A program made the position numbers and the translations under genes. 20,000 nt of DNA from an uncultured virus (IMG/VR IMGVR_UViG_3300020171_002032) (Duplodnaviria; Heunggongvirae; Uroviricota; Caudoviricetes): the IMG/VR virus record IMGVR_UViG_3300020171_002032. One strand, 5' to 3'. Of this stretch, positions 1,011 through 20,000 are shown piece after piece (the stretch's first letter is position 1; each line of letters opens with the position of its first letter). Below the pieces are notes generated by a model. It worked only from the letters and a program-made list of their open reading frames with translations. It was not told the origin of the DNA and made no database searches.

Positions 1011-1014
1011 CAGA

Positions 1015-5223: not shown

Positions 5224-5230
5224 TTCTGAG

Positions 5231-8474: not shown

Positions 8475-9517
8475 ATGTGGGTCTTATAACGACGTGGGCG
8501 CAACGATGCGGAATAGCTAGTTACTCCGCTAACCTTGCAAACGCATTGGCAAAACAGGATGTAAATGTCTACATTATTCGGATACCGCGGTTCGGTTACA
8601 AAGATCCAGCAGTATTTCAGAACATAGTTGACTCAATACCGCTTGACAAGATAGATCTGATTAGCTGTCAACATGAATATGGCCTCTACTCTGGTCTTGA
8701 CAGAGGCTTATTTTCCAGTTTAAAGCGACTGGGCAAACCGTTAGTCACGACTTTACATGCAGTAGGCAACTATGACGTGGATAACCTTATCCTTGAAGCA
8801 AGTGATCGGGTCATTGTTCACAATGATTACTGTCACAAACGATTATGGTACAACAAGAAGGCGACTGTGATACCTCACGGAATGACTCCCATGCTGACTC
8901 CTCCACCACCGAAAGAAGAGTGCAAGAAACGTGTTGGGATTCAGCCGAATACGCAGATAGTAGGCTACCTTGGATTCATAAGCAGCTACAAGGGATTGGA
9001 AACGCTCATTGAAGCAATGACTAAAATTCCAAATGTCGGGTTACTTATTGGAGGAGGATGGTTCATAGAAGCAGAACCTCAATACATCGTGGACCTGAAA
9101 GAGAAGTCACTGAATAAACTGCCTAACCGAGTTCAGTGGCTAGGCTTCATTCCAGATGAAGACTTGAACATGGTATATGGGGCAATGGACATTATCGTGT
9201 ACCCATCAATCACAATGACAGAATCAGGTGCTCTTCTCACAGCGTTGAGTTACGGAAAAGCAGTGATCACACGGAATCTTCCGCCAACAAGAGAAAAAGC
9301 GAAACATGGAGCGTTAATGCTGTTCAATAATGCGGATGATTTAGCAAGGAAGATCAAACATTTGCTTAAAGACAATGATCATCGCCTCATCCTTGAGGAA
9401 GGAGCCAAAAAATACAGTCAAGAAAACAGTTGGGCCAACATTGCGCTTCGTCACATACAACTTTACCAAGAAGTTTTAAGTCTCAGAAGTGAAGGCGACT
9501 TACCAAAAACCCAATAA
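8465..9517 (+). CDS. GT4 family glycosyltransferase
   Basis: CGIASYS, QHEYGLY, VTTLH, VIVH, IPHG, GFISSYKGLETLIEA, DIIVYPS..ESGALLTALSYGKAVI, SW..IA..H..LY. Confidence 0.92.
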   Translation: MGLNVGLITTWAQRCGIASYSANLANALAKQDVNVYIIRIPRFGYKDPAVFQNIVDSIPLDKIDLISCQHEYGLYSGLDRGLFSSLKRLGKPLVTTLHAVGNYDVDNLILEASDRVIVHNDYCHKRLWYNKKATVIPHGMTPMLTPPPPKEECKKRVGIQPNTQIVGYLGFISSYKGLETLIEAMTKIPNVGLLIGGGWFIEAEPQYIVDLKEKSLNKLPNRVQWLGFIPDEDLNMVYGAMDIIVYPSITMTESGALLTALSYGKAVITRNLPPTREKAKHGALMLFNNADDLARKIKHLLKDNDHRLILEEGAKKYSQENSWANIALRHIQLYQEVLSLRSEGDLPKTQ

Positions 9518-9782
9518 GAGCTACCAATCCACCGCCAACGACTGTGCCTAATAGATTGCGCCAAAAATGTTTCTCTTCTTTCCTTTCTTCTTCCTTGTCA
9601 GATTTGAGACTTTGAACTTCCTTTTTCAGTTCGTCTGACTTGTCTATGGTAAGTTGTTTTGCCTCATCTACACTGTCCTTGATACTGTTGATCTGATCTA
9701 GACTTCTTTGAAACCGTTCATCACAGAAACCTCGGGTTACAACAGAATTCGATGAGCCACCGTTCTTTTTCTCTTTTGGCAA
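9483..9782 (-). CDS. Small coiled-coil protein with a C-terminal transmembrane helix
   Basis: Heptad-like region followed by FWRNLLGTVVGGGLVALIGFLV. Start most likely TTG 9782-9780 behind GGTGA; the ATG at 9806 lies too close to the TATA box. Confidence 0.72.
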   Translation of the reverse strand: MPKEKKNGGSSNSVVTRGFCDERFQRSLDQINSIKDSVDEAKQLTIDKSDELKKEVQSLKSDKEEERKEEKHFWRNLLGTVVGGGLVALIGFLVSRLHF

Positions 9783-9821
9783 CTCTTCACCACTCTTATA
9801 TACCATTGTAGAGTTTGAATC

Positions 9822-9837
9822 AATAAAAGGCTTTTGC
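9822..9837 (-). promoter_or_regulatory. Archaeal BRE+TATA promoter (GCAAAAGCCTTTTATT)
   Basis: Purine-rich BRE-like run followed by TTTTATT in an intergenic gap. Near-identical copy at 19963-19979. Confidence 0.62.
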
Positions 9838-9882
9838 TACATTGAAACACGGTTAATTTGTTTTAACAGCGTGTTTTGTTGC

Positions 9883-10332
9883 CTAGCCTTCAATTTGAGT
9901 ATATAATGTTCCATTGACACCAGCAGACTGTACGAAGAAGATGAAGTGTCTTCTGTGGAATCGCATGTACGTGTTTGCTGGAATCAAATGTTGAACTCTT
10001 GATGATCCACCAAATCGTACATAACAGGTTTGGTCGCTGAGGAAAAGAATGTCTTTTGCTTCGAAACTTGGGAATGCTAGAGGCCATTCGAAGTCTGGGA
10101 TTATGCCTGCAAGAATAAGAGTAGTTAACCATGCTGGTCTTGCTGGTTGTCCATGAGTGTGAAGTGTCCAACCATAGAGTATGTTGAAAACAGTAGGATC
10201 TGAAAAATAAGCCATCATTCCTGACAAATAGTAGTCTTGTGTTGCAGTGAATGGAAGAGCTATGTAATCATCTGCATCATAGTGACGTTTAAGTACTGTA
10301 TAGTTTAGACCGCCTGTAAGGTCTGTACTCAT
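9883..10332 (-). CDS. Hypothetical beta-strand-rich protein (possible virion component)
   Basis: 149 aa, ATGA overlap with the upstream gene, GGAG RBS. Alternating hydrophobic strands at the C-terminus (ILFLSDQTCYVRF, FIFFVQS..GTLYTQIEG). Function is inference. Confidence 0.7.
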   Translation of the reverse strand: MSTDLTGGLNYTVLKRHYDADDYIALPFTATQDYYLSGMMAYFSDPTVFNILYGWTLHTHGQPARPAWLTTLILAGIIPDFEWPLAFPSFEAKDILFLSDQTCYVRFGGSSRVQHLIPANTYMRFHRRHFIFFVQSAGVNGTLYTQIEG

Positions 10333-10904
10333 TTCGGAGTCTCCTTTTTGAAGTCGGCTGGACCGACTACCATCAATGCTGGGTCAATTTTCAATTCTGA
10401 GTTTGGATCTAGGAGTCTGCGAATGCTTTGGATGTAAAGAGGCTTATTGGTGACATTGATAGCTCTTCCTGTAACGGATATGTCAGCTTGACTCTGCGTA
10501 CTCTCTATTCCAAGTCTAAGTTTAACGACAACGGTAGGTACAAAGGGAAGAGGCGAACCCCAATACCCTGAACCGACTATGACTACATAGAGTCCTGCTG
10601 TTGAGGCAGGGTCAGGTCGAAAGTATCTTGAAACGTAGCCGACTGGATCTGGATTTAGAGCACCTCCAACGAAATAAGTTTCTGGAAGTGCTTCAACGGT
10701 TTCAGGTCTCAGCTCTGCGCCTTGCCCTTCGAGAAGAACGGTTCCATAAGCATCTGTTGTAGCCATCTCAATAGCCATCATCAGTCCAGTTTCGCTGACC
10801 CTGATAATCTCGACAGTTTCTCCTCTCTTGACTGTTCTAGTGCCAGTATAAAGCCTCCATTCCCAACCTTTCAAAATTGGATAAACAGAGTATTGACCAA
10901 GCAT
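10329..10904 (-). CDS. Hypothetical beta-strand-rich protein (possible virion component)
   Basis: 191 aa, TGATG overlap upstream with AGGAG RBS, rich in V/G/T/P. No recognisable family. Confidence 0.72.
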   Translation of the reverse strand: MLGQYSVYPILKGWEWRLYTGTRTVKRGETVEIIRVSETGLMMAIEMATTDAYGTVLLEGQGAELRPETVEALPETYFVGGALNPDPVGYVSRYFRPDPASTAGLYVVIVGSGYWGSPLPFVPTVVVKLRLGIESTQSQADISVTGRAINVTNKPLYIQSIRRLLDPNSELKIDPALMVVGPADFKKETPK

Positions 10905-11098
10905 CAGCTTTTTCTCCTAACTGGAACAAGAGTTCGAGCCTTCTGTTCCAAGTCTTTTTTAGCTTTCTCCATAAGTTCTGTAATCTTGTTTCTGGGGATA
11001 CCAAGAGACAAATGCAAACACCTAACATAGAGTAGTCTCTCAATCATTTTAAAGTTTGTCATTCTGACAGTCATTGGAAAAATTGATAAGTCAAGCAT
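10904..11098 (-). CDS. Small basic hypothetical protein (start uncertain)
   Basis: Its stop overlaps the ATG of the next gene (TGATG). Several alternative ATGs. Confidence 0.5.
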   Translation of the reverse strand: MLDLSIFPMTVRMTNFKMIERLLYVRCLHLSLGIPRNKITELMEKAKKDLEQKARTLVPVRRKS

Positions 11099-11111
11099 CC
11101 CTACTCTAAAA

Positions 11112-11630
11112 ATGGTTCATATGAGTCACCTTAGTTTTGAAGGACAAACGAAAGAGAGTTACTGTATTGAGTGCGCTGAGAAACATGGTCAACGCGGAAA
11201 CATCTTCATGCGTGAAGGTCTCCAAAGAGCCGAAGTGTGTGGCAATGGCAATTGTGAGGGAGTCATTGAAAAGGTTCGTGCGACTGCTGAAGAGTTGGGA
11301 GGTATAGAAGCAGACACAGAGAACGCTCAAAATGAAGATGTAAGGCGAATCAATTCTCACGCTAGAGAAATCCGCAAACACATGTTCGCTATTCGCGCTG
11401 AACTTGGGCAGGCAAGCATAGAGCAACTTCAAGAAATAGAGAGCATGGTTGGCGATTTGGTAAATGAGATCTATGAAGTACGCAAGAAAGTAGATTGTCC
11501 TACTTGCAAAATCAAACTGGAGGAAGAGCAACAGGAACCAGAAAAACCAAGTTTAGAGCAGTACGGAAAGACTGTCGCTCAACGTAGAAAGGAACTGCTT
11601 GATGAAATAAGGGCTGGTATGGGAAGCTGA
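11112..11630 (+). CDS. Hypothetical helical protein with CxxC motifs
   Basis: 172 aa acidic helical protein with YCIECAEKH, CGNGNC and CPTC. Confidence 0.75.
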   Translation: MVHMSHLSFEGQTKESYCIECAEKHGQRGNIFMREGLQRAEVCGNGNCEGVIEKVRATAEELGGIEADTENAQNEDVRRINSHAREIRKHMFAIRAELGQASIEQLQEIESMVGDLVNEIYEVRKKVDCPTCKIKLEEEQQEPEKPSLEQYGKTVAQRRKELLDEIRAGMGS

Positions 11631-11637
11631 ATTCGCT

Positions 11638-11772
11638 ATGACTTGCCCATGTAAAAATACCTGCTCTTTCTACAGACCCGACGACTACAAATGCAGTCAC
11701 GAACCATCTACGGATGATAAGTCCTCGCTCTACTGCAAGCACTATACCCAATTGACAGGCAAAAACAGTTAA
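11638..11772 (+). CDS. Small Cys-rich protein (44 aa), possible metal-binding
   Basis: MTCPCKNTCSFYRPDDYKCSHEPSTDDKSSLYCKHYTQLTGKNS starts 7 nt after the stop of 11112-11630 and fills the gap. Below the ORF-track cut-off. Confidence 0.6.
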   Translation: MTCPCKNTCSFYRPDDYKCSHEPSTDDKSSLYCKHYTQLTGKNS

Positions 11773-11798
11773 CTCTCCTTAACCGCAATCATGAATGT

Positions 11799-12194
11799 TT
11801 AGAAGACACAAAGTTGTTGGGTTTCTGCAAGTTTCTTTGAGATTTTCCAGTCGAACTTTGAGCAGTAGACACCATCTTCTTCAGGTTTTCCTAGGTCACA
11901 TTTGCTACATGTGTGTTGCTTCCAATACTGCTGGGGAAGATGCTTTCCATCTAGAAGTTTTTGCATAGTGTGTTCTTTCAGTTCGATGAGATTCATTTCA
12001 CCTTCGGCTTTTTCCGAATCAAACTGATCTGGGTGGATCTCTCCACTTAGAATAAGATTGTTGAATGCGTTCTTGAAATTTATATCATTGACTCCTTTGA
12101 AACCTGCTGAAAGAGCTAGATCGCGGAATACGTCGAAAGAGTTTGGGTTATCCGCGAGAGCTTTCAATATCCTTTCTTCAAACTGATTCTTCAA
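11799..12194 (-). CDS. Hypothetical protein: possible N-terminal wHTH and C-terminal Cys motif
   Basis: EERILKAL....DLALSAG...FKNAFNNLILSGEI is wHTH-like; C-terminal CSKC...C...C. Start reassigned to TTG 12194 behind AAGGA to reduce overlap with the Zn-finger gene. Confidence 0.6.
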   Translation of the reverse strand: MKNQFEERILKALADNPNSFDVFRDLALSAGFKGVNDINFKNAFNNLILSGEIHPDQFDSEKAEGEMNLIELKEHTMQKLLDGKHLPQQYWKQHTCSKCDLGKPEEDGVYCSKFDWKISKKLAETQQLCVF

Positions 12195-12330
12195 CAACGA
12201 TTCCTTTATACGGTTTATTCCAGTATGGACTGTGACATTTTGGACAGACATCAGGATCAGATTCTTTTCTTGGTATCCAAATGTGACCACATCGCAAACA
12301 CTTAAGATGAGGAAGCCTAATCTCAGTCAT
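12178..12330 (-). CDS. Small zinc-ribbon protein (50 aa)
   Basis: MTEIRLPHLKCLRCGHIWIPRKESDPDVCPKCHSPYWN with two CxxC. ATG 12330 lies ~30 nt below a TTTATATT TATA (12362-12355). Confidence 0.8.
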   Translation of the reverse strand: MTEIRLPHLKCLRCGHIWIPRKESDPDVCPKCHSPYWNKPYKGIVVEESV

Positions 12331-12335
12331 GATTG

Positions 12336-12362
12336 TATTGCTATAGATTATAGTAATATAAA
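12336..12362 (-). promoter_or_regulatory. TATA box overlapped by an imperfect palindrome (putative operator)
   Basis: TATTGCTATA-GAT-TATAGTAATA (12336-12358; 9/10 arms) overlaps the TATA at 12355-12362. Confidence 0.5.
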
Positions 12363-12621
12363 TCTTCCTAGATGAACACACTCAGAACTGGCTAGTACGG
12401 ACTAAACAGGCAAGACTATTAGTAAGGAAGCAAAAAACCCATAAAACTAAAGAGAAATAACGATTTTTGATGGATAAAAGACCATGCGAAGAACGACTGC
12501 AAAGAATCAGCCTAGTTCTAGACAACCTTTAATCAGAATCGTCCATGTCTATGGAAGAGGGCAATACTGTTATTAACCTAGAAATAGGACTTCTTATATA
12601 GAAAGCATTGGAGGTGAGTCA

Positions 12622-12837
12622 ATGGATTTGAAGAATTTGAAGCCTCTCTTTGTAGTGTTGCTTGCTGTCGGCATTATCTTCGGAACCTTCGTGAATTTCC
12701 AGAGCAATGTACCCTTCGGTTTCGCATGGTTTGTGAATATGCTGTGGTTTGTCATAGGCTTTCCGACACTGCTAATAATTGGATCTCTGATTTTCTCGGC
12801 AGCAGAGAAGGCCCAGAAGGTTATAGAGGAAGACTAA
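12622..12837 (+). CDS. Small membrane protein (2 TM helices)
   Basis: Strong GGAGGTGA RBS, upstream TTATATA, two hydrophobic segments. Confidence 0.82.
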   Translation: MDLKNLKPLFVVLLAVGIIFGTFVNFQSNVPFGFAWFVNMLWFVIGFPTLLIIGSLIFSAAEKAQKVIEED

Positions 12838-12948
12838 CAAAGTGTTCCTCAAAAATTTTTCACAACCACTTTTTATATTATAGTAGAGTTTATCTTTTTC
12901 AAATGCTTTTTAAACCTATATGTTGAATACTGTATTGGGTGATATACA

Positions 12949-13401
12949 ACGAAGCTTAATGTCTACACTGCGGCAGTCATTCTACTTGTAGTCTTCGCCG
13001 TGATCTCAGGAATCCAAGCATTTGTCTTGAAACCTATAGACGTTTCGGGCGCACCATCAGAAATCCAGTATCTATACCAAGGCTTGCTCTATGTCTTCTC
13101 AACATCGGCTGTTGCACCATTGTTCACTATGGTACGCAATCTCTATGGCTATCTTCAAAACTATTTCGAAGAAGATCCTGCGAAGAGAAGTCAACTACAA
13201 TTTGAAGCTGGAAAACTTACGGCAACATGGCTACAATACGATGCTTACATCAAAGGCGCGGCAATATTCATTGTGGCATTTACGACAGGTACGGCACTTG
13301 CTCCTTACGCATATTACATGGCTGGAACAGTCGCTTTTATTCTAGATCTAGTGAGAAAAGCCTTCAAAGATGCTGCATCACCAGCTCAACCTGTCACTTA
13401 G
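12949..13401 (+). CDS. Multi-pass membrane protein; probable non-canonical ACG start
   Basis: The frame extends 17 codons upstream of the GTG at 13000 to ACG 12949 (6 nt after GGTGA), giving (M)KLNVYTAAVILLVVFAVISG. In-frame TGA at 12940. Confidence 0.7.
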   Translation, partial: TKLNVYTAAVILLVVFAVISGIQAFVLKPIDVSGAPSEIQYLYQGLLYVFSTSAVAPLFTMVRNLYGYLQNYFEEDPAKRSQLQFEAGKLTATWLQYDAYIKGAAIFIVAFTTGTALAPYAYYMAGTVAFILDLVRKAFKDAASPAQPVT

Positions 13402-13421
13402 TTGACTGCCACAAGACATCC

Positions 13422-13436
13422 CTTTTTTCTTTTTCC
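13422..13436 (+). terminator. U-rich archaeal terminator-like tract
   Basis: CTTTTTTCTTTTTCC about 20 nt after the stop at 13401. Confidence 0.45.
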
Positions 13437-13481
13437 ATTATTCAATAGATTTTTAAAGTTCGGTATCTGTTAAAGGATATT

Positions 13482-13919
13482 ATGCGAACATTGAGTTTTC
13501 CGAAACTTCTTGCAACACTGCAAATGGCAACGGTTCAGATTCCTTTCAGAATCACATTAAGTAACCAAGATCCATTAATCGACCAGTTCAGCAAATATTT
13601 CGCAAAACAGAAACATTGGTGGAGTTCTCCAATAATTAAGATACCGTTGTTTGTTCGAGGAATAATCAGATTCTACGATATAGATCATGGATACTTGGAT
13701 CATGGAGATTTTGTGAATGTGCCTTTGACAGGACGCTTTTTTGGTTGGTGGCGTTGGACACGCATTGAATTGTATGGAACTCTTCCCAATATAGGTCGTT
13801 TCTGTTTTAGCGGTTGGGGAATATGTGAAATGGAAGTCTATGACGAAAGCAACACTACTATTCTGAAGGGAGAGGGAAAAGTAATAACGACACTGGTACG
13901 GAGTGGTATCACATGTTGA
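13482..13919 (+). CDS. Hypothetical protein (aromatic/beta-rich; start may be ATG 13524)
   Basis: 145-aa ORF behind AAGGA and a TTTTTAAA TATA-like box. No family recognised. Confidence 0.62.
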   Translation: MRTLSFPKLLATLQMATVQIPFRITLSNQDPLIDQFSKYFAKQKHWWSSPIIKIPLFVRGIIRFYDIDHGYLDHGDFVNVPLTGRFFGWWRWTRIELYGTLPNIGRFCFSGWGICEMEVYDESNTTILKGEGKVITTLVRSGITC

Positions 13920-14071
13920 ATGAGCCGAAAGAAGTTCGAGACGCAAAGAACAAGTTGGTCATGAACGATCAGGATGTCAAGGTATTAGCCGAATATGCTC
14001 GGCAACGGTTTTTTCCAGTACAAAAAATTAGACTGATTGATGGAAAGCGTCTGAAAACATTAGATGAATAA
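13913..14071 (+). CDS. Small hypothetical protein (52 aa)
   Basis: MLNEPKEVRDAKNKLVMNDQDVKVLAEYARQRFFPVQKIRLIDGKRLKTLDE. GGAGTGG RBS; overlaps the upstream stop by 7 nt. Below the ORF-track cut-off. Confidence 0.62.
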   Translation: MLNEPKEVRDAKNKLVMNDQDVKVLAEYARQRFFPVQKIRLIDGKRLKTLDE

Positions 14072-14115
14072 TTTTAAATCTTCATAGAGACATATGGAGA
14101 AGTCCTTTTCAGAGG

Positions 14116-14136
14116 TGTAACAGTTACATGGTTACA
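14116..14136. promoter_or_regulatory. Perfect palindrome TGTAAC-A-GTTACA plus an extra GTTACA half-site over the RBS/start codon (putative operator)
   Basis: 14116-14128 is a perfect inverted repeat between the GAGGTG RBS and ATG 14128. Third half-site at 14131-14136. Confidence 0.55.
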
Positions 14137-14997
14137 GTCGATTCCCTCAGAAAAAGAGTCTACGACGTATGGGTTCAAAATCCATATATTCAAGCTCTAG
14201 ATACATGTAAAAAATTAGGTCTGACCTATGTTGATCATGGTCAATACATCCGAAATCTCTTGAGTCAGTTTCGGTCTTATTACCAGTTTGGTTCACCCCA
14301 AAAAGCCCATAATTTTCCGAAGCATCGTGTTTTTGAGTGGGAGAAGGTGCCGCGTGAGTTGTTGCCTGGTGAGGGGGAGTTGGAGAAGCGTTTGACTGCG
14401 TGGGGTTGGAAGCGTGTTGTGAATAGGAATGATATGTGGAGTTTTCGGGATCCTTTTGGGCAGGGGTCGGTTCATTGGTATGTTGGTGGTCTTGTTCGGC
14501 TTTATTTGAGGGGTGAGTTGCAGTTTGCTAAGGGTAAGGAATTGTTTTGCAGGGCCTTTCGCTGGTTTGATGCTAATGATTTGCGGAAGTATCTTGATGT
14601 TCCGTTAGTGGAGAAGTATCGGAAATGGACGTTTGAGATGGGTCAGCCAGTTCCGAGGTTTGATATTAGGCAATTTGAGCGTAGTCATGGATTGACGATT
14701 TTTAGTGATGGTTCGGACCCTACGAGTATTCATGTAGGAGAATCGATACCTTTTTGGCTCGATGAACAACGAGAAGCTACTAAAGAATTGGGTGTTGTTG
14801 TTAGAGAATTCGGGTATGATATTAAGGAGCACTTGAAGTTGATCACTGGCGCTCAAGATTTTGTGAAAGAGGTGTATGAAGAGGCTAAGGAGTGGAGGCA
14901 GGAGAGGAAGATGTCGCAGTTAAAACAGATTAAGCGAATGGAAAAACATGTTGAAGCCTCTCAGAAGAGCATTCTTGATTGGGTTGGAAAGGGTTGA
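14128..14997 (+). CDS. Hypothetical protein, possible N-terminal HTH and C-terminal coiled coil
   Basis: 289 aa with GAGGTG RBS. LRKRVYDVWVQNP.IQALDTCKKLGL...YIRNLLSQFR is HTH-like; alpha/beta core; charged helical tail. Confidence 0.78.
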   Translation: MVTVDSLRKRVYDVWVQNPYIQALDTCKKLGLTYVDHGQYIRNLLSQFRSYYQFGSPQKAHNFPKHRVFEWEKVPRELLPGEGELEKRLTAWGWKRVVNRNDMWSFRDPFGQGSVHWYVGGLVRLYLRGELQFAKGKELFCRAFRWFDANDLRKYLDVPLVEKYRKWTFEMGQPVPRFDIRQFERSHGLTIFSDGSDPTSIHVGESIPFWLDEQREATKELGVVVREFGYDIKEHLKLITGAQDFVKEVYEEAKEWRQERKMSQLKQIKRMEKHVEASQKSILDWVGKG

Positions 14998-15060
14998 GGA
15001 GCCTCCTAGGGATACTAAATTGGGAGAAAGGAGAATGAAAATGCGCTTCTCCTCAACCCT
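14990..15060. repeat. 12-bp perfect inverted repeat (AGGGTTGAGGAG ... CTCCTCAACCCT) at the 3' end of the 289-aa gene
   Basis: Arms at 14990-15001 and 15049-15060, with a 47-nt spacer containing a further GAGAA/TTCTC pair. Confidence 0.7.
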
Positions 15061-15107
15061 AGATACTCTTTTATCTTCTAGTAGCCTAATGAAATTTGTG
15101 GTAATCT

Positions 15108-15326
15108 GTGTCTGAGAGACGAGAGCTGTGCAAGATCTTTCTTGAATCTATTAAGGATGAAGGGCCAGCTTCAATCAGTTACAGAAAGGTGGCTGAACGT
15201 CTCAAAGAAAATCCTGATCCTGAGATTCAAGTTTTGAGTATTCTTTTCGAGAAAATGTCTCAGGACGAACAGAGTCATAAAATGGCTCTCGATAAGGTAG
15301 CTAAACTCGTCTGCACAGTCAGATAG
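15108..15326 (+). CDS. Ferritin-like / rubrerythrin-like helical hairpin (half-ferritin)
   Basis: 72 aa: IKDEGPASISY ... FEKMSQDEQSHK follows the E..A...Y / DExxH diiron pattern of one helix pair. GTG start. Confidence 0.72.
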   Translation: MSERRELCKIFLESIKDEGPASISYRKVAERLKENPDPEIQVLSILFEKMSQDEQSHKMALDKVAKLVCTVR

Positions 15327-15328
15327 AA

Positions 15329-15655
15329 TTATAGGCTCAATGCGAGAAGGGCCGTTAAGGCTATTCCGAGTGCTGTGCTTGCTCCAAATGTTGGTTTTCC
15401 TATCCCAAAGGGGTTTGTTTGTGCGGCTTCGCCTACTATAAGGCCAGTTCCGAAGCCGTCGAGATATGGTTCGCCTTTCTTATAATACCTAGCAGCAATC
15501 AGACTTACTAGGCCCCACTGATAATGTTCTATGAATGATAAGGGACTTTGAGCTAATGCAAGCTTGTACTGGTTGCTTGTTGGCACGACCTGCCAAGCTA
15601 CTGATGCTACCATACTTGCTCCCAAACCAACGAGTATTTTCTTCGTTTCAAGCAT
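15329..15655 (-). CDS. Small multi-pass membrane protein
   Basis: 108 aa, Gly/Ala-rich hydrophobic segments, EHYQWG motif. Confidence 0.72.
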   Translation of the reverse strand: MLETKKILVGLGASMVASVAWQVVPTSNQYKLALAQSPLSFIEHYQWGLVSLIAARYYKKGEPYLDGFGTGLIVGEAAQTNPFGIGKPTFGASTALGIALTALLALSL

Positions 15656-15694
15656 AGGTTAATATTCTGAGAATTAGGTAATTAACCTTAGCAT

Positions 15695-15892
15695 ATGGAG
15701 GAAGTATTGATGGGTTCTGTTTGGCTTCCAGTAGCAGCGGCGGCGTGTGTGGGTAGCTCCTTCTTTCTATGGTATGCAATGACAGACTACGAGCGTGCTC
15801 GCTATTTTGGTATCATTGCTGGTATACCAGTGACGGTCTTCGCGGTCTACGGCTTGTTTACTTGGGGTCAGACGCAGAAATTGAAAAAATAG
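15695..15892 (+). CDS. Small membrane protein (2 TM helices)
   Basis: Two hydrophobic segments and a basic tail. Start could be the second Met (15710) behind GGAGG. Confidence 0.68.
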   Translation: MEEVLMGSVWLPVAAAACVGSSFFLWYAMTDYERARYFGIIAGIPVTVFAVYGLFTWGQTQKLKK

Positions 15893-15894
15893 CA

Positions 15895-16632
15895 TCATTG
15901 TTTGCGTAGAATAAAATATAATGTAAGAATTCCAACACTGCCAGCTAGGAGAACCTGCCAAGTTTCGATGTATTGAAGATTGATATTTGGATTCCGTGTC
16001 GCATAAACAAAGGGATAAAATCCATATCGGCGCAAGGTCTTTGTTCGGAAGCCGTTCTCTCGTAGAAAAGTTTCTATCTGTCCAGCATCTTCTTGAGAAT
16101 GGTACGCAGCTATAGCGAAGTTGTCAATATTCGGCAACATTTCGCTTGCTCCTTCTAGGATATGCATAGCCGCGCCTTCAGCATCGATTTTCACGAAATC
16201 TACATGCGTAATGCCAAGCTTGGGAAGAACTCTGTCAAGCCTTCCCACTTTAACATTTATGCCATCAGCGCAGTTCATGATACTGCTACCAGTAAGAACT
16301 GGTGTAGGACAAATAACCTTACAAGTGCATTCGTTCCAAAGGCCCATTTGCACAGGCACGATATTTATGGCTTGATTCGCCTCTATGTTCTCAACCAACG
16401 CCTTGTAACTCATTGGTTCAGGTTCGAAAGCGATTATCTTTCCAATGGTTCCTACTTTCTGAGAGGCATAAAATGAGAAGAATCCAATACTTGCGCCAAT
16501 ATCAACTACGGTCATGCCAGTCTCAAGAGGGATCAACTTGTCGTATACATGGTCTCGCCAGATCTCGGGTGCTGGTCTGAGGTCGCAATTCTGAGGAACT
16601 GAAGCGAGAGTTAATCCATCATAGACAAACAT
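15895..16632 (-). CDS. FkbM-family methyltransferase with a C-terminal membrane anchor
   Basis: VVDIGASIGFFS, IIAFEPEP, N....I.PVQMGL, RLD, DFVKIDAEGA..ILEGA. Ends in WQVLLAGSVGILTLYFILRKQ. Confidence 0.9.
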   Translation of the reverse strand: MFVYDGLTLASVPQNCDLRPAPEIWRDHVYDKLIPLETGMTVVDIGASIGFFSFYASQKVGTIGKIIAFEPEPMSYKALVENIEANQAINIVPVQMGLWNECTCKVICPTPVLTGSSIMNCADGINVKVGRLDRVLPKLGITHVDFVKIDAEGAAMHILEGASEMLPNIDNFAIAAYHSQEDAGQIETFLRENGFRTKTLRRYGFYPFVYATRNPNINLQYIETWQVLLAGSVGILTLYFILRKQ

Positions 16633-16704
16633 TTTGTTCCATATATCGTATAGCTGTTCGTCATTTAATTGTTATTCCTAATACACGGCATCGATTCGGT
16701 GCAG

Positions 16705-16938
16705 TTAATGAGGTTTAACTGCGCCTATGGTCGCGGTAATGTTCTCCTTTATCTTACAACTAGGACATTGAATCCAGACTTGGCCATTCTCATCTTTCCA
16801 AGCATCCATTTTCACAGTTTTTCCTTCTTTCATACAAGAGCGACAAACGTAATCCCATGTGAGATATTCGCCCCAACGTTCATTATGATCTTTATGAGTA
16901 AAAGTATATGCACAGATTGGATGAGTCTTGATTGGCAA
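16705..16938 (-). CDS. Small zinc-finger protein
   Basis: CRSC ... CPSC. TTG start behind AAGGTGG. Confidence 0.72.
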   Translation of the reverse strand: MPIKTHPICAYTFTHKDHNERWGEYLTWDYVCRSCMKEGKTVKMDAWKDENGQVWIQCPSCKIKENITATIGAVKPH

Positions 16939-16966
16939 TGCAGTTAAGCCACCTTAAACGAAAACA

Positions 16967-17221
16967 CTATTCTTTGAACTGCCTCTTAGTTTCATCGCCA
17001 ATATTTGATCCTATAATAAAACCTTTCTTGAAGAATTCCTCCATGGTCAATACGCCTGACTGTAAGCCAGCATGTAGCTCTGGTAGTTTGACGAGTAATT
17101 GATTCACAAGTTGGGTCAGTAGCTCCTTAATATAGGCTTCAAGAGCCTCTTCCTTGATATCCTTCTTTGCAAAAAGTTGAACGACCTCTCTTGGGACTTC
17201 AACTTCAAGAGTGATTTTCAT
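16967..17221 (-). CDS. Small hypothetical protein (possible ribbon-helix-helix-like N-terminus)
   Basis: AGGAG RBS. MKITLEVEVPREVVQLF is a beta-strand then helix pattern. Confidence 0.7.
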   Translation of the reverse strand: MKITLEVEVPREVVQLFAKKDIKEEALEAYIKELLTQLVNQLLVKLPELHAGLQSGVLTMEEFFKKGFIIGSNIGDETKRQFKE

Positions 17222-17260
17222 AGAATCACATGCTCCTATTACCTCTGCGGTTATAAGAAC

Positions 17261-17350
17261 TTAACTGCGTCGCCTTTTTGGACAGTTGCCTCTTCCTCTT
17301 CCTGTTCGTGGGCCTTTCCCATTTGGCCCAGTGCCGTCATGATTCGGAAT
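17261..17350 (-). CDS. DUF5320-like Gly/Arg-rich peptide (29 aa) with ATT start
   Basis: (M)PNHDGTGPNGKGPRTGRGRGNCPKRRRS matches the DUF5320 N-terminal signature MPxxDGTGPxGxGPxTGRGxGxC. ATT sits at the Met position, 7 nt after GGAGG (17362-17358), with no in-frame ATG/GTG/TTG upstream. Confidence 0.75.
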   Translation of the reverse strand: MPNHDGTGPNGKGPRTGRGRGNCPKRRRS

Positions 17351-17366
17351 ATTATCGCCTCCTGAA

Positions 17367-17567
17367 TTATTTGGTTGCGTAGTACAGTCCTACTATGACG
17401 AGTGCTATGCCTCCAGCAATAGCAATGTAAGACCAGGTGTTGTTGGATGATAATGAGGCTGTTCCATAGTGTCTAGCGAGGCGTTCTTCATCTGTTCTGG
17501 GATATCCATATCTTCGTTCTCCAGCTCTACCAGTCTGTAGACCTGTTCCTTTGGTTGGTAGACTCAT
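17367..17567 (-). CDS. Small protein with a basic N-terminus and C-terminal TM helix
   Basis: MSLPTKGTGLQTGRAGERRYGYPRTDEERLARH...WSYIAIAGGIALVIVGLYYATK. Confidence 0.75.
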   Translation of the reverse strand: MSLPTKGTGLQTGRAGERRYGYPRTDEERLARHYGTASLSSNNTWSYIAIAGGIALVIVGLYYATK

Positions 17568-17654
17568 AAAATCAACCAATACGAAGGTATGAGAAGGTTA
17601 GAATTTAGATGTTTCCTTTAGATTCTAAACTGCTCTTAAATAGTGTTAACCGCA

Positions 17655-17834
17655 TTATTCTGTCGGGCACTTGAGCCTTTCTTTAACACGCAAAAACTCA
17701 TCTAGAAACTCCAAGTCCCTACGAAACTTGTCATAATCAGACTTGAAGTAGTGATCTAAAACCTCAACAAGCATTCTCGTCTCAATCTGACCAAAACATT
17801 GACATACGAATTTCTTTTGTTCAGCGGCATCCAT
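17655..17834 (-). CDS. Small hypothetical protein (59 aa)
   Basis: MDAAEQKKFVCQCFGQIETRMLVEVLDHYFKSDYDKFRRDLEFLDEFLRVKERLKCPTE. Overlaps the upstream stop; below the ORF-track cut-off. Confidence 0.62.
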   Translation of the reverse strand: MDAAEQKKFVCQCFGQIETRMLVEVLDHYFKSDYDKFRRDLEFLDEFLRVKERLKCPTE

Positions 17835-17991
17835 ATTCTAGAGCTTCCCGTGCCATTTTCATCTGTTCTTCAAGTGGTTTTTTCAGATATTCTTCAAAAA
17901 GTCGTTTTAAACGCTCTAAGGCCTCTTGCTCTCTAGATTTCATTTCCTCTGATTGAGTTCGAAGTCTGAGAAGACAGTCTGCTTCAGACAT
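17821..17991 (-). CDS. Small helical hypothetical protein (56 aa)
   Basis: MSEADCLLRLRTQSEEMKSREQEALERLKRLFEEYLKKPLEEQMKMAREALEYGCR. Fills the gap in the same-strand gene run. Confidence 0.6.
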   Translation of the reverse strand: MSEADCLLRLRTQSEEMKSREQEALERLKRLFEEYLKKPLEEQMKMAREALEYGCR

Positions 17992-18070
17992 ATGATCCAC
18001 ACTTTACGCATATGGTATTTCTGAGGTAAAAGGTTATCTGCACACGCTTATAGGCATTTAACCGCGCGAA

Positions 18071-18832
18071 CTAAATGAAGGCCGTGAGTTTTTCTGGTAT
18101 TGTTGCAAGACGCTTCTGTGCGATTTCGACATATTTAGAGCTAATATCGATCCCGATGAAATATCGTTTTAGTTTTCTACACGCGATAGCTGTCCATCCG
18201 ACACCTATGCAAGGATCTAGAACACAATCGTTCTCCAGTAAATAGGTTTTGACCAAGTATTCGGCAAGTTCAACGGGTTTTTCAGTAGGGTGCAAGGCTA
18301 CTGAGGAATGGGGTTTAGGTATGGAGATTATTGAAGTTGGATGCTTAAAGTAACCATCTCTTTCGGAATTGTCAACTTCTTTATGTTCTCCATAATTTCT
18401 ACGAGCGACGCGGAGTTTAGTTCCTCTACTATGACTTTTCTGACCTGCCACTTTCTGAGGAAAATAACGCGCTGTTTTTTCATAGAAGATCAGGATGTGT
18501 TCATGCACTCTTAATGGCATTTTATTAGCGTTTAGAAATCCTGAAACAAGGATTTTGTTCCAAATCAAGTCATACTTGAACCAGCTTCTATTTGAAAGAA
18601 TAAGGTCAATAGTGTAAGGAAACTGGGATGTAAGAATGACTGTTCCAGTATCAGGTTTTAGAAGACGTTTCCATTGGCCCCATAAGAGATCTAACGGAAG
18701 CTTGATGTCTTCTCTATTTTGAGTCACTCCATAAGGCAGATCGGTGAGAATTAAATCGATACTTTTCTCAGGGAGATCCTTCATTACTTCTAGGCAGTCA
18801 CCACAGATTATTTGATTTACGGGTAGCTCCAA
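18071..18832 (-). CDS. Orphan DNA methyltransferase, N6-adenine/N4-cytosine (beta class)
   Basis: IICGDCLEVMK, IDLILTDLPY (motif IV), HEHILIF, HPTEKP, VLDPCIGVGWT (variant motif I), FIGIDIS..Y..IAQKRL. No adjacent restriction endonuclease. Confidence 0.93.
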   Translation of the reverse strand: MELPVNQIICGDCLEVMKDLPEKSIDLILTDLPYGVTQNREDIKLPLDLLWGQWKRLLKPDTGTVILTSQFPYTIDLILSNRSWFKYDLIWNKILVSGFLNANKMPLRVHEHILIFYEKTARYFPQKVAGQKSHSRGTKLRVARRNYGEHKEVDNSERDGYFKHPTSIISIPKPHSSVALHPTEKPVELAEYLVKTYLLENDCVLDPCIGVGWTAIACRKLKRYFIGIDISSKYVEIAQKRLATIPEKLTAFI

Positions 18833-18846
18833 TATCCAACCTTCGT

Positions 18847-19554
18847 TTAATTAGATATATCCGCGTGGTGTTCTGGATGCCAGCTCTTTTCGCCACTCGC
18901 CATGTCGATGAGAATCCATCTTCCATCTTTAGCCTTGCAGAAGTCTACGGACCAGTAGCCTTGGAATTGTTGAGCTACGATTTCCGCATAGTGAGTGAGA
19001 AGTTCGATTTCTTCTTTGGTTTCAGTATTGAGTTTCTTTGAGACTTTCCTCCAATCTGGGATGCTCGGTTCCTTTGAATCAGCTATTGCTTCTTCAATCC
19101 AGTACGGATGATGACAAACGACTTTTCCATCTTTAATGAAGTATCGTCTTTCAGGGTTTACGGGCATGTCGCCATAGAAAGCGGTAAATCCACTGTCCAT
19201 TGGGATATACTCTCGAACTACGAGCGCTTTGAAGTTCAAGCCCATGATATCTGCGCAAAGGTTGAAAGAGACAACCTCGAAAATATGACTCCATAACTCG
19301 TCGGGCTTATCTACAAAACAGGATTTTTTCCAGTCATGTTTGCCACTTGCGAGATCTGTTCTGAGGAAACATGGGTAGCCCATTTTGTCGCAAAGAGGTT
19401 TGACTCCTTTAACCAGAACATCAGGAACATTTTCGTTAATCAGGCTCTTCAATTCTCTTTCGTTTAAAATGAGAATTTCAGTCTTTGGTTGTGGGATAGG
19501 CAGATTCTTGATTTTCGGATACCAGACCAACATACTATCAGATTCGACTTTCAT
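18847..19554 (-). CDS. ATP-grasp fold protein (R2K/Cdc123-like clade)
   Basis: PCFLRTD..SGKHDW, LVVREYI, ERRYFI.DGKV, WSVDF, WILIDM match ATP-grasp motif order. GAGG RBS. Confidence 0.72.
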   Translation of the reverse strand: MKVESDSMLVWYPKIKNLPIPQPKTEILILNERELKSLINENVPDVLVKGVKPLCDKMGYPCFLRTDLASGKHDWKKSCFVDKPDELWSHIFEVVSFNLCADIMGLNFKALVVREYIPMDSGFTAFYGDMPVNPERRYFIKDGKVVCHHPYWIEEAIADSKEPSIPDWRKVSKKLNTETKEEIELLTHYAEIVAQQFQGYWSVDFCKAKDGRWILIDMASGEKSWHPEHHADISN

Positions 19555-19589
19555 AATTCAACCTCATTCATCGCTTAATGCACATTATC

Positions 19590-19942
19590 TGATGGACTTT
19601 TAGGGAGGCTGTAGCCCTCAAGCTTCATACCTTCTCCAGACACACCACGAAGCACACGCTAACACATCTAGTACCCATGTCGATTGGACATTATGTGTTT
19701 CTGCTAACGATTAGCAGTCGTGGCTGGCTCTCTGGGACTCCCTGACACCCTCTGGATTATGAGACCAGTTGTGTCTTCGGGTGCCGAGCGCCTTCCAACA
19801 CCTACTAATGGTGTTTTAGCACCTTAAGATGGTGCTTTGAACCTCCTTCACCGATGGTTCTTAGTTCCTCCTAGGGTTTAGGAACGTAGTAGCTCCGACA
19901 GAAGCTACTTTGGCCTAGTCTGCTAGAGGACACCAACCTCAC
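19590..19942 (-). ncRNA. Putative structured non-coding RNA or long structured 5' leader (unassigned family)
   Basis: No ORF >=60 aa. At least 9 hairpins, including five back-to-back. A G-U wobble in the 19888-19909 stem works only on the minus strand. BRE/TATA about 29 nt upstream. Confidence 0.6.
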
Positions 19943-19962
19943 TCTAGAGATTGTTGTTGGAT

Positions 19963-19979
19963 AATAAAAGGCTTTTTGC
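19963..19979 (-). promoter_or_regulatory. Archaeal BRE+TATA promoter (GCAAAAAGCCTTTTATT) driving the structured region
   Basis: Same motif as 9822-9837 except for one extra A. Predicts a start near 19940. Confidence 0.62.
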
Positions 19980-20000
19980 GCTTATACCACGTTAACTGCA

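What the first reader, a model, noticed from the sequence alone, without database searches (positions are those of the whole stretch)
19555..19980. Promoter-driven ~390-nt ORF-free, hairpin-packed region: candidate novel ncRNA or leader upstream of an ATP-grasp/DNA methyltransferase operon
Seen: in an otherwise tightly packed genome this stretch has no ORF >=60 aa but is almost fully tiled with stems: 19926-19940, 19915-19926, 19888-19909, 19864-19885, 19839-19860, 19818-19836, 19797-19815, 19744-19775 (nested), 19701-19717 and 19661-19699 (nested). A BRE/TATA motif shared with 9822-9837 lies ~29 nt above the first stem, and a G-U pair in 19888-19909 supports the minus strand. Inference: a transcribed structured RNA, either stand-alone or a leader controlling the ATP-grasp gene at 19554. 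I cannot match it to a known RNA class.
Basis: partly seen in the sequence, partly recalled or inferred. Interest (0 to 1): 0.82.

Follow-up and report, generated by a model that had tools for sequence, protein, structure and literature searches.

The report
New structured RNA of Bathyarchaeia viruses
The hairpin-rich gap is a real gene for a roughly 340-base folded RNA from an uncatalogued family, found only in viruses and integrated mobile elements of Bathyarchaeia archaea; what the RNA does is still unknown.

Summary
Window 19605-19940 (minus strand) is ORF-free and encodes a compact, multi-helix RNA of about 336 nt.

- **Single-sequence folding is only suggestive.** The z-score is about -3 on both strands.
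- **Comparison is decisive.** I found ten more copies: one in an unrelated 84-kb tailed-virus contig, one diverged copy in a third study's metagenome, and eight in seven Bathyarchaeia MAGs.
- **Covariation is strong.** On nine full-length copies, 52 pairs are 95.6% paired and 20 show compensatory double changes (0 of 500 shuffles reach this).
- **The strand is clear.** G-U versus A-C counts are 61 versus 2 on the window's minus strand and 10 versus 11 on the other.
- **A promoter is conserved.** An archaeal BRE/TATA box sits about 22 nt before the first helix.
- **It matches no known class.** There is no Rfam 15 match. It is not SRP RNA or RNase P RNA, because canonical copies lie elsewhere in the same genomes.
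- **It is sporadic.** It occurs in 3 of 151 genomes of one family.
- **It travels with mobile elements.** It lies 2-2.5 kb from an integrase-like gene, and in cells it usually sits next to a divergent 49-aa AbrB/MazE-type gene.
- **The five-hairpin stretch is peripheral.**
- **It is not a leader of the ATP-grasp gene.** Downstream genes differ in every other copy.
- **Open points.** Function is inferred, and transcription is not shown.

The parts
19959..19975 (-). Archaeal-type BRE/TATA promoter of the RNA gene. The TATA box is at 19962-19969, with 21 nt between it and the first base of helix P1.
   Evidence: The 13-mer at 19963-19975 is repeated exactly at 9822-9834(-). The box aligns with the TATA box of six cellular copies at the same distance from P1 (A8). 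Function as a promoter is inferred.
19605..19940 (-). The structured RNA gene, from the first base of P1 to the last base of P1 (336 nt). The likely transcript runs from about 19943 to at least 19598.
   Evidence: Homology to L083 is 75.7% over 350 nt, E 1e-55. The R1 model scores 151.3 bits, E 3e-41. Covariation is, strand choice and coordinates.
19922..19940 (-). 5' strands of the closing helices P1, P2 and P3.
   Evidence: They pair with 19605-19623. This is helix 1: 16 pairs, 4 with double changes, 95.8% paired.
19913..19921 (-). Joining strand J3/5, identical in all 9 copies but for one change in G100.
   Evidence: Alignment A9; coordinates.
19888..19909 (-). Hairpin H1 (P5), present in every copy.
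   Evidence: Helix 2: 8 pairs, 5 with double changes.
19796..19887 (-). Variable hairpin fan (H2-H5). This is the core of the 'hairpin-packed' stretch. Viral copies have four hairpins here; cellular copies have one or two.
   Evidence: Alignments A2, A6 and A9. H2 and H5 each show one compensatory change against L083. In run X6, 19804-19879 is replaced by 72 other letters.
19736..19795 (-). Conserved central domain: joining strand plus the stacked hairpin P6-P7-P8.
   Evidence: Helices 3-5: P6 has 6 invariant pairs, P7 has 2 of 5 pairs with double changes, and P8 has 3 of 4.
19719..19735 (-). 5' strands of the long-range helices P9 and P10.
   Evidence: They pair with 19636-19649. This is helix 6: 13 pairs, 6 with double changes, 99.1% paired.
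19650..19718 (-). Window-specific insertion capping P10, made of two local hairpins.
   Evidence: It is absent or different in the other copies (A9). In run X6 exactly 19649-19718 is replaced by 27 letters.
19636..19649 (-). 3' strands of P10 and P9.
19624..19635 (-). Near-invariant joining strand J9/3. It runs into an AUG that opens a non-conserved ORF of 10-42 codons.
   Evidence: Alignment A9. Peptides diverge after about residue 7-9.
19605..19623 (-). 3' strands of P3, P2 and P1.
18847..19554 (-). R2K-clade ATP-grasp gene, 50 nt downstream of the RNA with no T-run between them. It is probably co-transcribed here but is not part of the family.
   Evidence: PF14243, E 7.8e-12. No T-run precedes its ATG. 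None of its 82 homologue loci carries the RNA.
18071..18832 (-). N6/N4 DNA methyltransferase gene, next in the same direction.
   Evidence: PF01555, E 1.2e-29; phrog_67, E 5e-58.
9822..9834 (-). Second copy of the promoter 13-mer, about 15 nt before the ATG of ORF 9483-9806 (a leaderless arrangement).

Best explanation
Window 19605-19940 (minus strand) is a stand-alone gene for a structured non-coding RNA of about 336 nt. It is transcribed from its own archaeal BRE/TATA promoter at 19959-19975.

**Family.** It belongs to an RNA family that is not in Rfam 15. The family is carried by mobile genetic elements of Bathyarchaeia: tailed viruses (this window and an unrelated 84-kb viral contig) and integrase-bearing integrated elements in Bathyarchaeia genomes.

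**Fold (shown by covariation).**
- A three-part closing helix (P1-P3) brings the two ends together.
- Inside it is a multi-way junction whose joining strands are almost invariant.
- From the junction spring a conserved stacked hairpin domain (P6-P8), a second long-range helix (P9-P10) and a variable fan of 2 to 5 small hairpins.
- The viral copies have the largest fan.

**How it works (inferred).**
- An invariant core with a freely varying periphery is the pattern of an RNA whose core is a binding or catalytic site. I therefore read it as a trans-acting RNA, either a ribonucleoprotein scaffold or a ribozyme-like core, that the element uses during active replication.
- In integrated elements it shares a divergent promoter region with a minimal 49-aa AbrB/MazE-type DNA-binding protein, which probably keeps it under repression.
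- In the viruses that partner was not found (in the window, only the 20 kb held could be searched).
- In this window no terminator separates the RNA from the ATP-grasp and DNA methyltransferase genes. The same promoter probably drives all three, and the RNA would be released by processing or would remain as a 5' domain.
For: **Homologues**
- Homologue in viral contig G001 (locus L083): 75.7% identity over 350 nt, E 1e-55. The window's 20 kb shares no proteins with that contig except two generic methyltransferase hits.
- Of 7 genome hits to a 19-nt core motif, 5 are Bathyarchaeia MAGs. The other 2 fail the covariance model.
- Further copies were found by BLAST and by the model: a second copy in G002, and copies in G100 and G452.

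**Structure and strand**
- On 9 full copies there are 52 pairs, 95.6% of cells paired. 20 pairs show double changes against 9.8 +/- 2.1 in shuffles (0 of 500 as high), and slid controls give at most 6.
- The consensus fold energy (RNAalifold) is -58.1 with 61 G-U and 2 A-C cells on the window's minus strand, against -46.0 with 10 G-U and 11 A-C cells on the opposite strand. Mean single-sequence energy is -100.3 against -88.5.

**Transcription signals**
- The TATA box aligns in six cellular copies and the window at the same distance from P1. The viral copy L083 has its own A/T box 21 nt upstream.
- T-runs of 4 or more lie within 45 nt after the 3' end in 6 of 8 cellular copies (read).

**Not a housekeeping RNA**
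- Canonical SRP RNA lies elsewhere in 5 of 5 host genomes, and canonical RNase P RNA in 3 of 5.
- The family was found in 2 of 151 genomes sampled from the class and 3 of 151 from the family.

**Mobile-element context**
- An integrase-like gene of about 500 aa lies 2.1-2.5 kb away in 5 of 7 cellular neighbourhoods fetched. The two without one are short contigs.
- G001 shares genes with these neighbourhoods.
- G001 is a tailed virus, with tail tube, capsid, prohead protease and portal hits.

**AbrB-type neighbour**
- PF04014 hits 5 of 6 divergent neighbour ORFs. The sixth is truncated.

**Modularity in a third study**
- In run X6 the core is kept while exactly the P10 insertion and three fan hairpins are swapped.
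Against: - **No direct evidence of transcription.** The only RNA libraries laid carry relatives that diverge from the window at 19592. They say nothing about the element.
- **Both strands fold better than shuffles**, and single-window z-scores are unremarkable.
- **The sample is small.** There are nine full copies, two of them paralogues in one genome. Shuffle controls can overstate significance for related sequences.
- **Helix P6 and several joining strands never vary,** so they are untested by covariation.
- **No terminator follows the RNA in either viral copy**. In the window it could function only as a 5' UTR.
- **Host assignment of the window rests on the RNA family alone.** The ATP-grasp gene was found in 0 of 401 sampled Bathyarchaeia genomes.
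- **Nothing tested bears on the proposed trans-acting role or on AbrB repression.** One cellular copy (G452) lacks both the AbrB gene and a recognisable TATA box.
Confidence: 0.7

Rival explanations
1. It is a cis-acting 5' leader (riboswitch-like or protein-binding UTR) that controls the ATP-grasp/DNA methyltransferase operon.
For: It lies on the same strand, 50 nt upstream of the ATP-grasp start, with no T-run or terminator-like site between them. A near-invariant segment resembles a ribosome-binding site followed by AUG.
Against: - None of the 82 ATP-grasp loci has the element. In them the gene is tightly preceded by other ORFs.
- The ATP-grasp gene follows the RNA only in the window, not in the nine other copies whose flanks I could read (G001 and eight cellular). 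What follows those copies includes convergent tRNAs in G001, ABC transporter genes, a TrmB regulator, an RHH protein and hypothetical ORFs.
- Six of 8 cellular copies are followed by T-runs.
- The ORF opened by the internal AUG is 10-42 codons long and is not conserved beyond residues 7-9. Its conserved codons are explained by helices P1-P3.
Confidence: 0.1
2. It is a host housekeeping RNA (a divergent SRP, RNase P or other essential RNA) that viruses have captured.
For: Its size, closing helix, multi-domain fold and archaeal promoter resemble those of essential archaeal RNAs. In G001 it lies next to a cluster of four tRNA genes.
Against: - No Rfam family matches at gathering score, or at E up to 1-10.
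- Canonical SRP RNA is present in 5 of 5 genomes and canonical RNase P RNA in 3 of 5, elsewhere in the same genomes.
- The family was found in only 3 of 151 genomes of one family.
- One genome has two copies.
- The copies lie beside integrase-like genes and blocks of hypothetical genes.
Confidence: 0.05
3. It is a DNA-level element (replication origin, packaging site or recombination site) whose hairpins form in single-stranded DNA rather than RNA.
For: Both strands fold better than shuffles. The cellular copies lie near the ends of integrated elements, close to a recombinase-like gene. The AbrB-RNA cassette has opposite orientation relative to that gene in G003 versus G002 and G004.
Against: - The G-U versus A-C asymmetry is strong: 61 versus 2 on one strand and 10 versus 11 on the other.
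- A TATA box is held at a fixed distance from P1, and T-runs follow the 3' end.
- No flanking inverted repeats are shared between loci.
Confidence: 0.05
4. The conserved 3' block encodes a micro-peptide, and the RNA structure is secondary.
For: A near-invariant purine-rich stretch followed by AUG is present in all 10 copies examined.
Against: Peptide lengths run from 10 to 42 aa with no similarity after residues 7-9. Third codon positions are as invariant as first and second positions. The variable positions covary with the 5' strands of P1 and P2.
Confidence: 0.03

Closest known systems
ROOL and GOLLD RNAs (large ornate RNAs of bacterial prophages; their properties are recalled, not taken from a call)
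   Same: It is a large, multi-hairpin RNA of unknown function carried by viruses and integrated elements. In one virus it sits next to tRNA genes. It has a conserved core and a variable periphery.
   Different: - No Rfam family matched in any search.
- This RNA is archaeal.
- It is 215-340 nt rather than roughly 580-800 nt (sizes recalled).
- In cells it is paired with an AbrB-type gene.
Archaeal SRP RNA (RF01857) and RNase P RNA (RF00373)
   Same: It is similar in size, has an archaeal promoter, a terminal helix joining the 5' and 3' ends, and multi-domain junctions.
   Different: There is no model match. Canonical copies are found elsewhere in the same genomes. The distribution is sporadic and tied to mobile elements.
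IS200/IS605 omega-RNA / HEARO
   Same: It is a structured RNA associated with a mobile element.
   Different: No TnpB, IscB or transposase domain was found among the neighbours scanned. There is no Rfam match. The variable parts are closed hairpins, not a guide segment at one end.
phi29-type packaging RNA (pRNA; properties recalled)
   Same: It is a junction-based structured RNA encoded by a tailed virus.
   Different: No evidence links this RNA to packaging. It also occurs in integrated elements, beside a regulator and a recombinase-like gene. No Rfam match was found.

Membership tests
Archaea_SRP (RF01857) | Covariance-model match at or above the gathering score | tested here: not met
   There is no match in the window or in the cellular copies.
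Archaea_SRP (RF01857) | It is the genome's SRP RNA gene | tested here: not met
   Canonical SRP RNA (147-153 bits) lies at other loci in 5 of 5 host genomes.
RNaseP_arch (RF00373) | Covariance-model match, and being the genome's RNase P RNA | tested here: not met
   The element does not match. Canonical RNase P RNA (180-197 bits) lies elsewhere in 3 of 5 genomes, and the other two gave no match at all.
tRNA / tmRNA | tRNA-like domain detected by ARAGORN | tested here: not met
   There are 0 genes in the window. In G001 only separate tRNA genes were found.
IS200/IS605 omega-RNA / HEARO | Adjacent or overlapping TnpB or IscB gene | tested here: not met
   No such Pfam domain was found in 24 window ORFs, in 24 ORFs beside cellular and viral copies, or in 37 ORFs of three 17-20-kb neighbourhoods.
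IS200/IS605 omega-RNA / HEARO | Rfam model match | tested here: not met
   No Rfam family reached threshold. That HEARO is among the 4227 models is recalled, not checked.
ROOL / GOLLD | Rfam model match | tested here: not met
   That both families are in Rfam 15 is recalled.
ROOL / GOLLD | Carried by (pro)viruses, often beside tRNA genes | tested here: inconclusive
   Virus and integrated-element carriage is met. tRNA adjacency is seen in G001, and one tRNA lies 1.2 kb away in G005. It is not seen in the window.
cis-regulatory leader / riboswitch | The same gene or pathway is conserved downstream across copies | tested here: not met
   Downstream genes differ from the window's in the other copies whose flanks I could read. 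None of the 82 ATP-grasp loci has the element.
New family proposed here (Bathyarchaeia mobile-element RNA) | Shared sequence blocks and helices P1-P3, P5, P6-P8 and P9-P10 with covariation | tested here: met
   The window scores 151.3 bits (E 3e-41) with model R1, which was built partly from it. Independent homology is 1e-55 to L083.
New family proposed here (Bathyarchaeia mobile-element RNA) | Divergent AbrB/MazE-type neighbour gene | not testable with these tools
   The window ends 25 nt beyond the promoter, so the position where the gene would lie is not in the window. No AbrB homologue occurs in window 1-20000 or in G001.

The most novel reading that the evidence does not exclude
The AbrB-RNA pair is a two-gene conflict module of a new type. 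In it, a compact effector RNA, catalytic or a decoy for a host factor, is held silent by a minimal AbrB repressor in resident elements. Bathyarchaeia viruses have captured the RNA without the repressor, enlarged its hairpin periphery and placed it at the head of an early anti-restriction operon (ATP-grasp plus DNA methyltransferase). It would then be an RNA weapon or counter-defence used during infection.
Probability: 0.2. Interest if true: 0.85.

Novelty: new variant of a known kind. Interest (0 to 1): 0.72.

Why it matters
- **Archaeal viruses have very few known non-coding RNAs.** As far as my searches reach, none of the large 'ornate' kind that bacterial prophages carry has been described for them.
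- **The family is unusually well defined for its size.** It has a covariation-supported fold and a clear strand and promoter. Its ecology points to a role in the conflict between mobile elements and host: viruses, integrated elements, a recombinase-like neighbour and an AbrB-type partner.
- **It gives a concrete target in an uncultured lineage.** Bathyarchaeia are among the most abundant sediment archaea, and the RNA can be taken directly to structure probing, cryo-EM and binding assays.
- **It supplies a marker.** The RNA can be used to recognise Bathyarchaeia viruses in metagenomes.

Tried and rejected
- **ATP-grasp synteny led nowhere.** I fetched 2 viral and 80 metagenome loci with ATP-grasp homologues. 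None holds the element.
- **Known phages:** no blastn match.
- **First exact 30-mer in IMG/VR:** 0 hits.
- **Later viral scans found only G001**, apart from one chance hit inside a coding region, L084.
- **Repeats in the window:** nothing involves the element.
- **Sigma-70 promoter and intrinsic-terminator scan:** nothing in the element.
- **Earlier findings of this scan:** four look-ups, all empty.
- **RNA libraries X4 and X5 are uninformative.**
  - Their contigs cover the ATP-grasp gene up to 19588-19592, identical to the window there, and show no cover over 19600-19935.
  - One X4 contig appears to join 19592 to 19969. Only 22 letters lie on one side, and likeness was set to 80, so this is at most a weak hint that close relatives lack the cassette.
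  - The missing cover is not evidence about expression.
- **Full-length covariance model:** A 149-position model of the 3' two-thirds was used instead.
- **Antisense targets:** the complement of an invariant 12-nt joining strand occurs in three host genomes only at the RNA genes themselves.
- **Inverted repeats flanking the AbrB-RNA cassette:** none shared between loci.
- **AbrB relatives in IMG/VR:** two distant hits, neither with the RNA.
- **ATP-grasp gene in 401 sampled Bathyarchaeia genomes:** not found with this query, so it does not help assign the host.
- **Two short BLAST hits were rejected.** The hits in G224 and G346 and the 19-28-nt matches in a bacterial MAG and in Hydrogenobacter fail the model and were dropped as chance.
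- **Literature:** three full-text searches and term look-ups in three papers found no description of this RNA.
  - PMC10848311 on Bathyarchaeia viruses.
  - PMC13551039 on Aca regulators.
  - bioRxiv 10.64898/2026.10.21.760802 on intergenic clustering.
  - I saw only the matched passages. Supplements were not opened and could list such a cluster.
Full report
**1. The observation**

Window 19555-19980 has no ORF of 60 aa or more. The longest ORF wholly inside it is 35 aa. The only other apparent gap nearby, 17580-18070, is filled by two 59-aa ORFs.

The stretch folds better than dinucleotide shuffles on both strands: z -3.15 on the minus strand and -3.66 on the plus strand, with 0 of 100 shuffles as good. 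In a 150-nt scan of the whole window, the two windows over it rank 2nd and 3rd of 133 by raw energy. Their z-scores are only -1.9 to -2.6, and some coding windows score lower. Single-sequence folding is therefore suggestive and no more.

The 3' two-thirds of the element is 53% G+C, against 38-46% per kilobase for the window.

The promoter motif is real. A 13-mer at 19963-19975(-) recurs exactly at 9822-9834(-), about 15 nt before the ATG of ORF 9483-9806. That is 2 matches against 0.06 expected.

**2. Known classes**

- Rfam 15 gives nothing at gathering score for the whole window.
- At E up to 10 on 19400-20000 it gives only a chance snoRNA match, E 5.8.
- ARAGORN finds no tRNA or tmRNA.
- No sigma-70 promoter or intrinsic terminator lies in the element.

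**3. Is it tied to the ATP-grasp gene?**

The gene at 18847-19554(-) is an R2K-clade ATP-grasp (PF14243). The next gene is an N6/N4 DNA methyltransferase.

I fetched 2 viral and 80 metagenome loci with ATP-grasp homologues of up to 80% identity. None has anything like the 446-nt upstream stretch; the best blastn hit is 26 nt at E 0.1. In those loci the gene is tightly preceded by other ORFs on the same strand. The element does not travel with the ATP-grasp gene.

**4. Other samples**

- Apart from the possible source run, a groundwater run from a second study (X2) holds the stretch. Its contigs are identical to the window over 17500-20000.
- A DNA contig of a third study (X6, 3222 nt) carries a diverged copy. 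The blocks 19575-19648, 19719-19803 and 19880-20000 are kept.
- In that contig, 19649-19718 is replaced by 27 letters and 19804-19879 by 72 other letters.
- These two swapped blocks later proved to be exactly the two variable modules of the RNA.
- The two RNA libraries hold only relatives of the ATP-grasp region and are uninformative for the element (see Tried and rejected).

**5. Homologues**

*In viruses.* A 19-nt core pattern hit IMG/VR twice.
- One hit lies inside a coding region of a G+C-rich contig and is chance.
- The other, L083, lies in an ORF-free gap of an 84,303-bp viral contig (G001, CheckV completeness 78). It aligns to window 19941-19602 at 75.7% identity over 350 nt, E 1e-55.
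- G001 is a tailed virus, with tail tube, capsid, prohead protease and portal hits.
- The window's ORFs share nothing with G001 but two generic methyltransferase hits.
- Four tRNA genes, one of them 159 nt long and so apparently carrying an intron, lie 220-650 nt downstream on the other strand.

*In cellular genomes.* A 19-nt motif scanned over 185,579 species genomes gave 7 hits, 5 of them in Bathyarchaeia MAGs. The other two, a bacterial MAG and Hydrogenobacter, match only 19-28 nt and fail the covariance model.

BLAST and a covariance model (R1, built from alignment A7) added a second copy in G002, a copy in G100 and a copy in G452.

In all I have 9 full copies, 7 cellular and 2 viral, plus one copy truncated at a contig end. 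The cellular copies are shorter, at about 215-280 nt.

**6. Structure and strand**

On the 9-row alignment A9 I took the RNAalifold consensus and removed one helix in a badly aligned stretch.

| Measure | Observed | Control |
|---|---|---|
| Pairs in the structure | 52 | - |
| Cells forming a standard pair | 95.6% | 87.4% in shuffles; 33-46% when partners are slid |
| Pairs with double changes | 20 | 9.8 +/- 2.1 in shuffles (0 of 500 as high); at most 6 when slid |
| Covariation score | 0.290 | 0.131 in shuffles |

The helices, in window coordinates, are:
- **P1-P3:** 19922-19940 with 19605-19623.
- **P5, hairpin H1:** 19888-19909.
- **P6-P8:** within 19736-19785.
- **P9-P10:** 19719-19735 with 19636-19649.

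P6 (6 pairs) never varies and so is untested by covariation.

The joining strands are nearly invariant: 19913-19921, 19786-19795 and 19624-19635.

Between H1 and the central domain lies a fan of one or two further hairpins in cells and four in the two viruses. H2 and H5 each show a compensatory change between the two viral copies.

The strand is clear.

| Strand | RNAalifold energy | G-U cells | A-C cells | Mean single-sequence energy |
|---|---|---|---|---|
| Window minus | -58.1 | 61 | 2 | -100.3 |
| Opposite | -46.0 | 10 | 11 | -88.5 |

The structure for each strand was derived on that strand, so the test is symmetrical.

**7. Transcription signals**

- In six cellular copies and the window, a TATA box aligns at the same place. 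In the window, 21 nt lie between the box at 19962-19969 and the first base of P1.
- L083 has its own A/T box 21 nt upstream.
- The G452 copy has none that I recognise, and an ORF runs up to its 5' end.
- T-runs of four or more lie within 45 nt after the 3' end in 6 of 8 cellular copies and in neither viral copy (read).
- In the window the ATP-grasp ATG follows 50 nt after P1 with no T-run. Read-through into that operon is therefore likely. This is an inference.

**8. Not a housekeeping RNA**

- Canonical SRP RNA is present elsewhere in 5 of 5 host genomes.
- Canonical RNase P RNA is present elsewhere in 3 of 5. The other two gave no match and may be incomplete.
- Rfam finds nothing in the cellular copies, even at E up to 10 on the element alone.
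- The family is sporadic. By BLAST, 5 of 401 genomes sampled from the class matched, and two of those matches are 25-29-nt chance hits.
- With model R1, 2 of 151 genomes matched in the class and 3 of 151 in the family.
- These are samples scored with strict filters, so 'not found in those searched' is all that can be said.

**9. Context in cells**

*The AbrB-type neighbour.* The conserved block is about 460 nt. It consists of the RNA plus a divergently transcribed ORF of about 49 aa whose start lies about 65 nt from the RNA. This ORF is a bare AbrB/MazE/SpoVT-type domain.
- PF04014 hits 5 of 6 such ORFs. The sixth, in G100, has lost its C-terminal half.
- It has no C-terminal tail and no conserved partner ORF.
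- It is absent beside the G452 copy, from G001 and from window 1-20000.
- The place where it would lie in the window is beyond base 20000.

*The integrase-like gene.* A protein of about 500 aa lies 2.1-2.5 kb away in 5 of 7 neighbourhoods fetched.
- The two without one are contigs of 4 and 11 kb.
- Only the G452 member hits PF00589, at E 9e-9.
- The others are tied to it by BLASTP: 31% over 237 aa at E 4e-22, and 35% over 81 aa at E 4e-10.

*Other context.*
- The surrounding genes are mostly without Pfam hits. On one side they give way to ordinary host genes: ABC transporter genes, citrate synthase and a prismane-family gene.
- G001 shares two gene families with these neighbourhoods.
- The two copies in G002 sit in two related but diverged elements.
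- Relative to the integrase-like gene, the AbrB-RNA cassette has opposite orientation in G003 versus G002 and G004. No flanking inverted repeats are shared between loci.

**10. What it most likely is and does**

*Shown.*
- It is a conserved, strand-specific, covariation-supported RNA fold.
- Its promoter box is conserved.
- The family is confined, as far as searched, to Bathyarchaeia genomes and two viral contigs.
- In cells it lies in what look like integrated mobile elements.

*Inferred.*
- It is a trans-acting RNA. An invariant junction core with a freely varying hairpin periphery is the pattern of RNAs whose core binds a partner or catalyses a reaction.
- The AbrB-type protein, a DNA-binding fold with no toxin-binding tail, probably represses the shared promoter in resident elements.
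- In the viral copies no such partner was found. The RNA heads an operon with a DNA methyltransferase (window) or sits by a tRNA cluster (G001). Both settings fit genes used during active infection.
- I could not test a target. The complement of one invariant strand occurs nowhere else in three host genomes.

**11. Rivals**

- **Leader of the ATP-grasp operon.** This is contradicted by points 3, 7 and 9.
- **Captured housekeeping RNA.** This is contradicted by point 8.
- **DNA-level element.** This is contradicted by the G-U asymmetry and the transcription signals.
- **Micro-peptide gene.** The AUG after the purine-rich strand opens ORFs of 10-42 codons that diverge after residues 7-9. The conserved codons are explained by P1-P3.

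**12. Novelty**

No Rfam family matches. Three full-text searches, and term look-ups in three papers of which I saw only the matched passages, found no description of this RNA. Supplements were not opened.

The nearest known kind is the large ornate RNA of bacterial prophages (ROOL, GOLLD). The resemblance is one of lifestyle, not of sequence or fold, and their properties are recalled rather than tested.

I rate this a new family and a new variant of that kind. It is, to my knowledge, the first in archaeal viruses.

Noticed in passing
window 14001-15000 (ORF 14128-14997 +): GC skew is +0.358 in this kilobase, far above the rest of the window, which stays within +/-0.14. The 289-aa ORF there has no Pfam or PHROG hit.
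   Followed up: no
window 9822-9834 (-) and 9483-9806 (-): The same 13-nt BRE/TATA-like motif as at the RNA gene lies about 15 nt before the ATG of a 107-aa ORF with weak holin-like PHROG hits. This suggests leaderless archaeal transcription units with a shared promoter type.
   Followed up: partly
window 1-9517: This is a glycan-modification cluster: SDR epimerases/dehydratases, a B12-binding radical SAM enzyme, several methyltransferases, a pyruvyl transferase and three glycosyltransferases. The unrelated virus G001 also carries glycosyltransferases, methyltransferases and a radical SAM/SPASM enzyme.
   Followed up: no
window about 18066 (run X5): An RNA-library contig that matches 18043-18066 continues into letters that read like the T-arm end of a tRNA. 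A relative may have a tRNA gene next to the methyltransferase gene.
   Followed up: no
G001 (L090:9877-14946, minus strand): A 1689-aa protein combines an ATP-dependent DNA ligase domain with a metallo-beta-lactamase domain. A second, stand-alone ligase and a LAGLIDADG endonuclease lie elsewhere on the contig.
   Followed up: no
L087:2206-2364 (G001): One of the four clustered viral tRNA genes spans 159 nt in the Rfam match, as expected for an intron-bearing archaeal tRNA. ARAGORN reported only two of the four.
   Followed up: no
L120 versus L128 (G002 versus G003): The ~460-nt AbrB-RNA cassette is inverted relative to the flanking integrase-like gene and a conserved ~170-nt block, while the flanks stay collinear. 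No flanking inverted repeats were found.
   Followed up: partly
L109:2087-2261 and its counterparts in L093, L094 and L110: A further conserved block of ~150-200 nt lies 330-550 nt from the RNA in four loci, at 71-80% identity. It may be a small gene: two ORFs of about 50 aa across it share 50% identity. It may instead be another non-coding element.
   Followed up: no
L110 / L095 upstream of the RNA: In G100 and G005 the promoter-proximal segment is duplicated, so two TATA-like boxes lie in tandem before the RNA (alignment A5).
   Followed up: no
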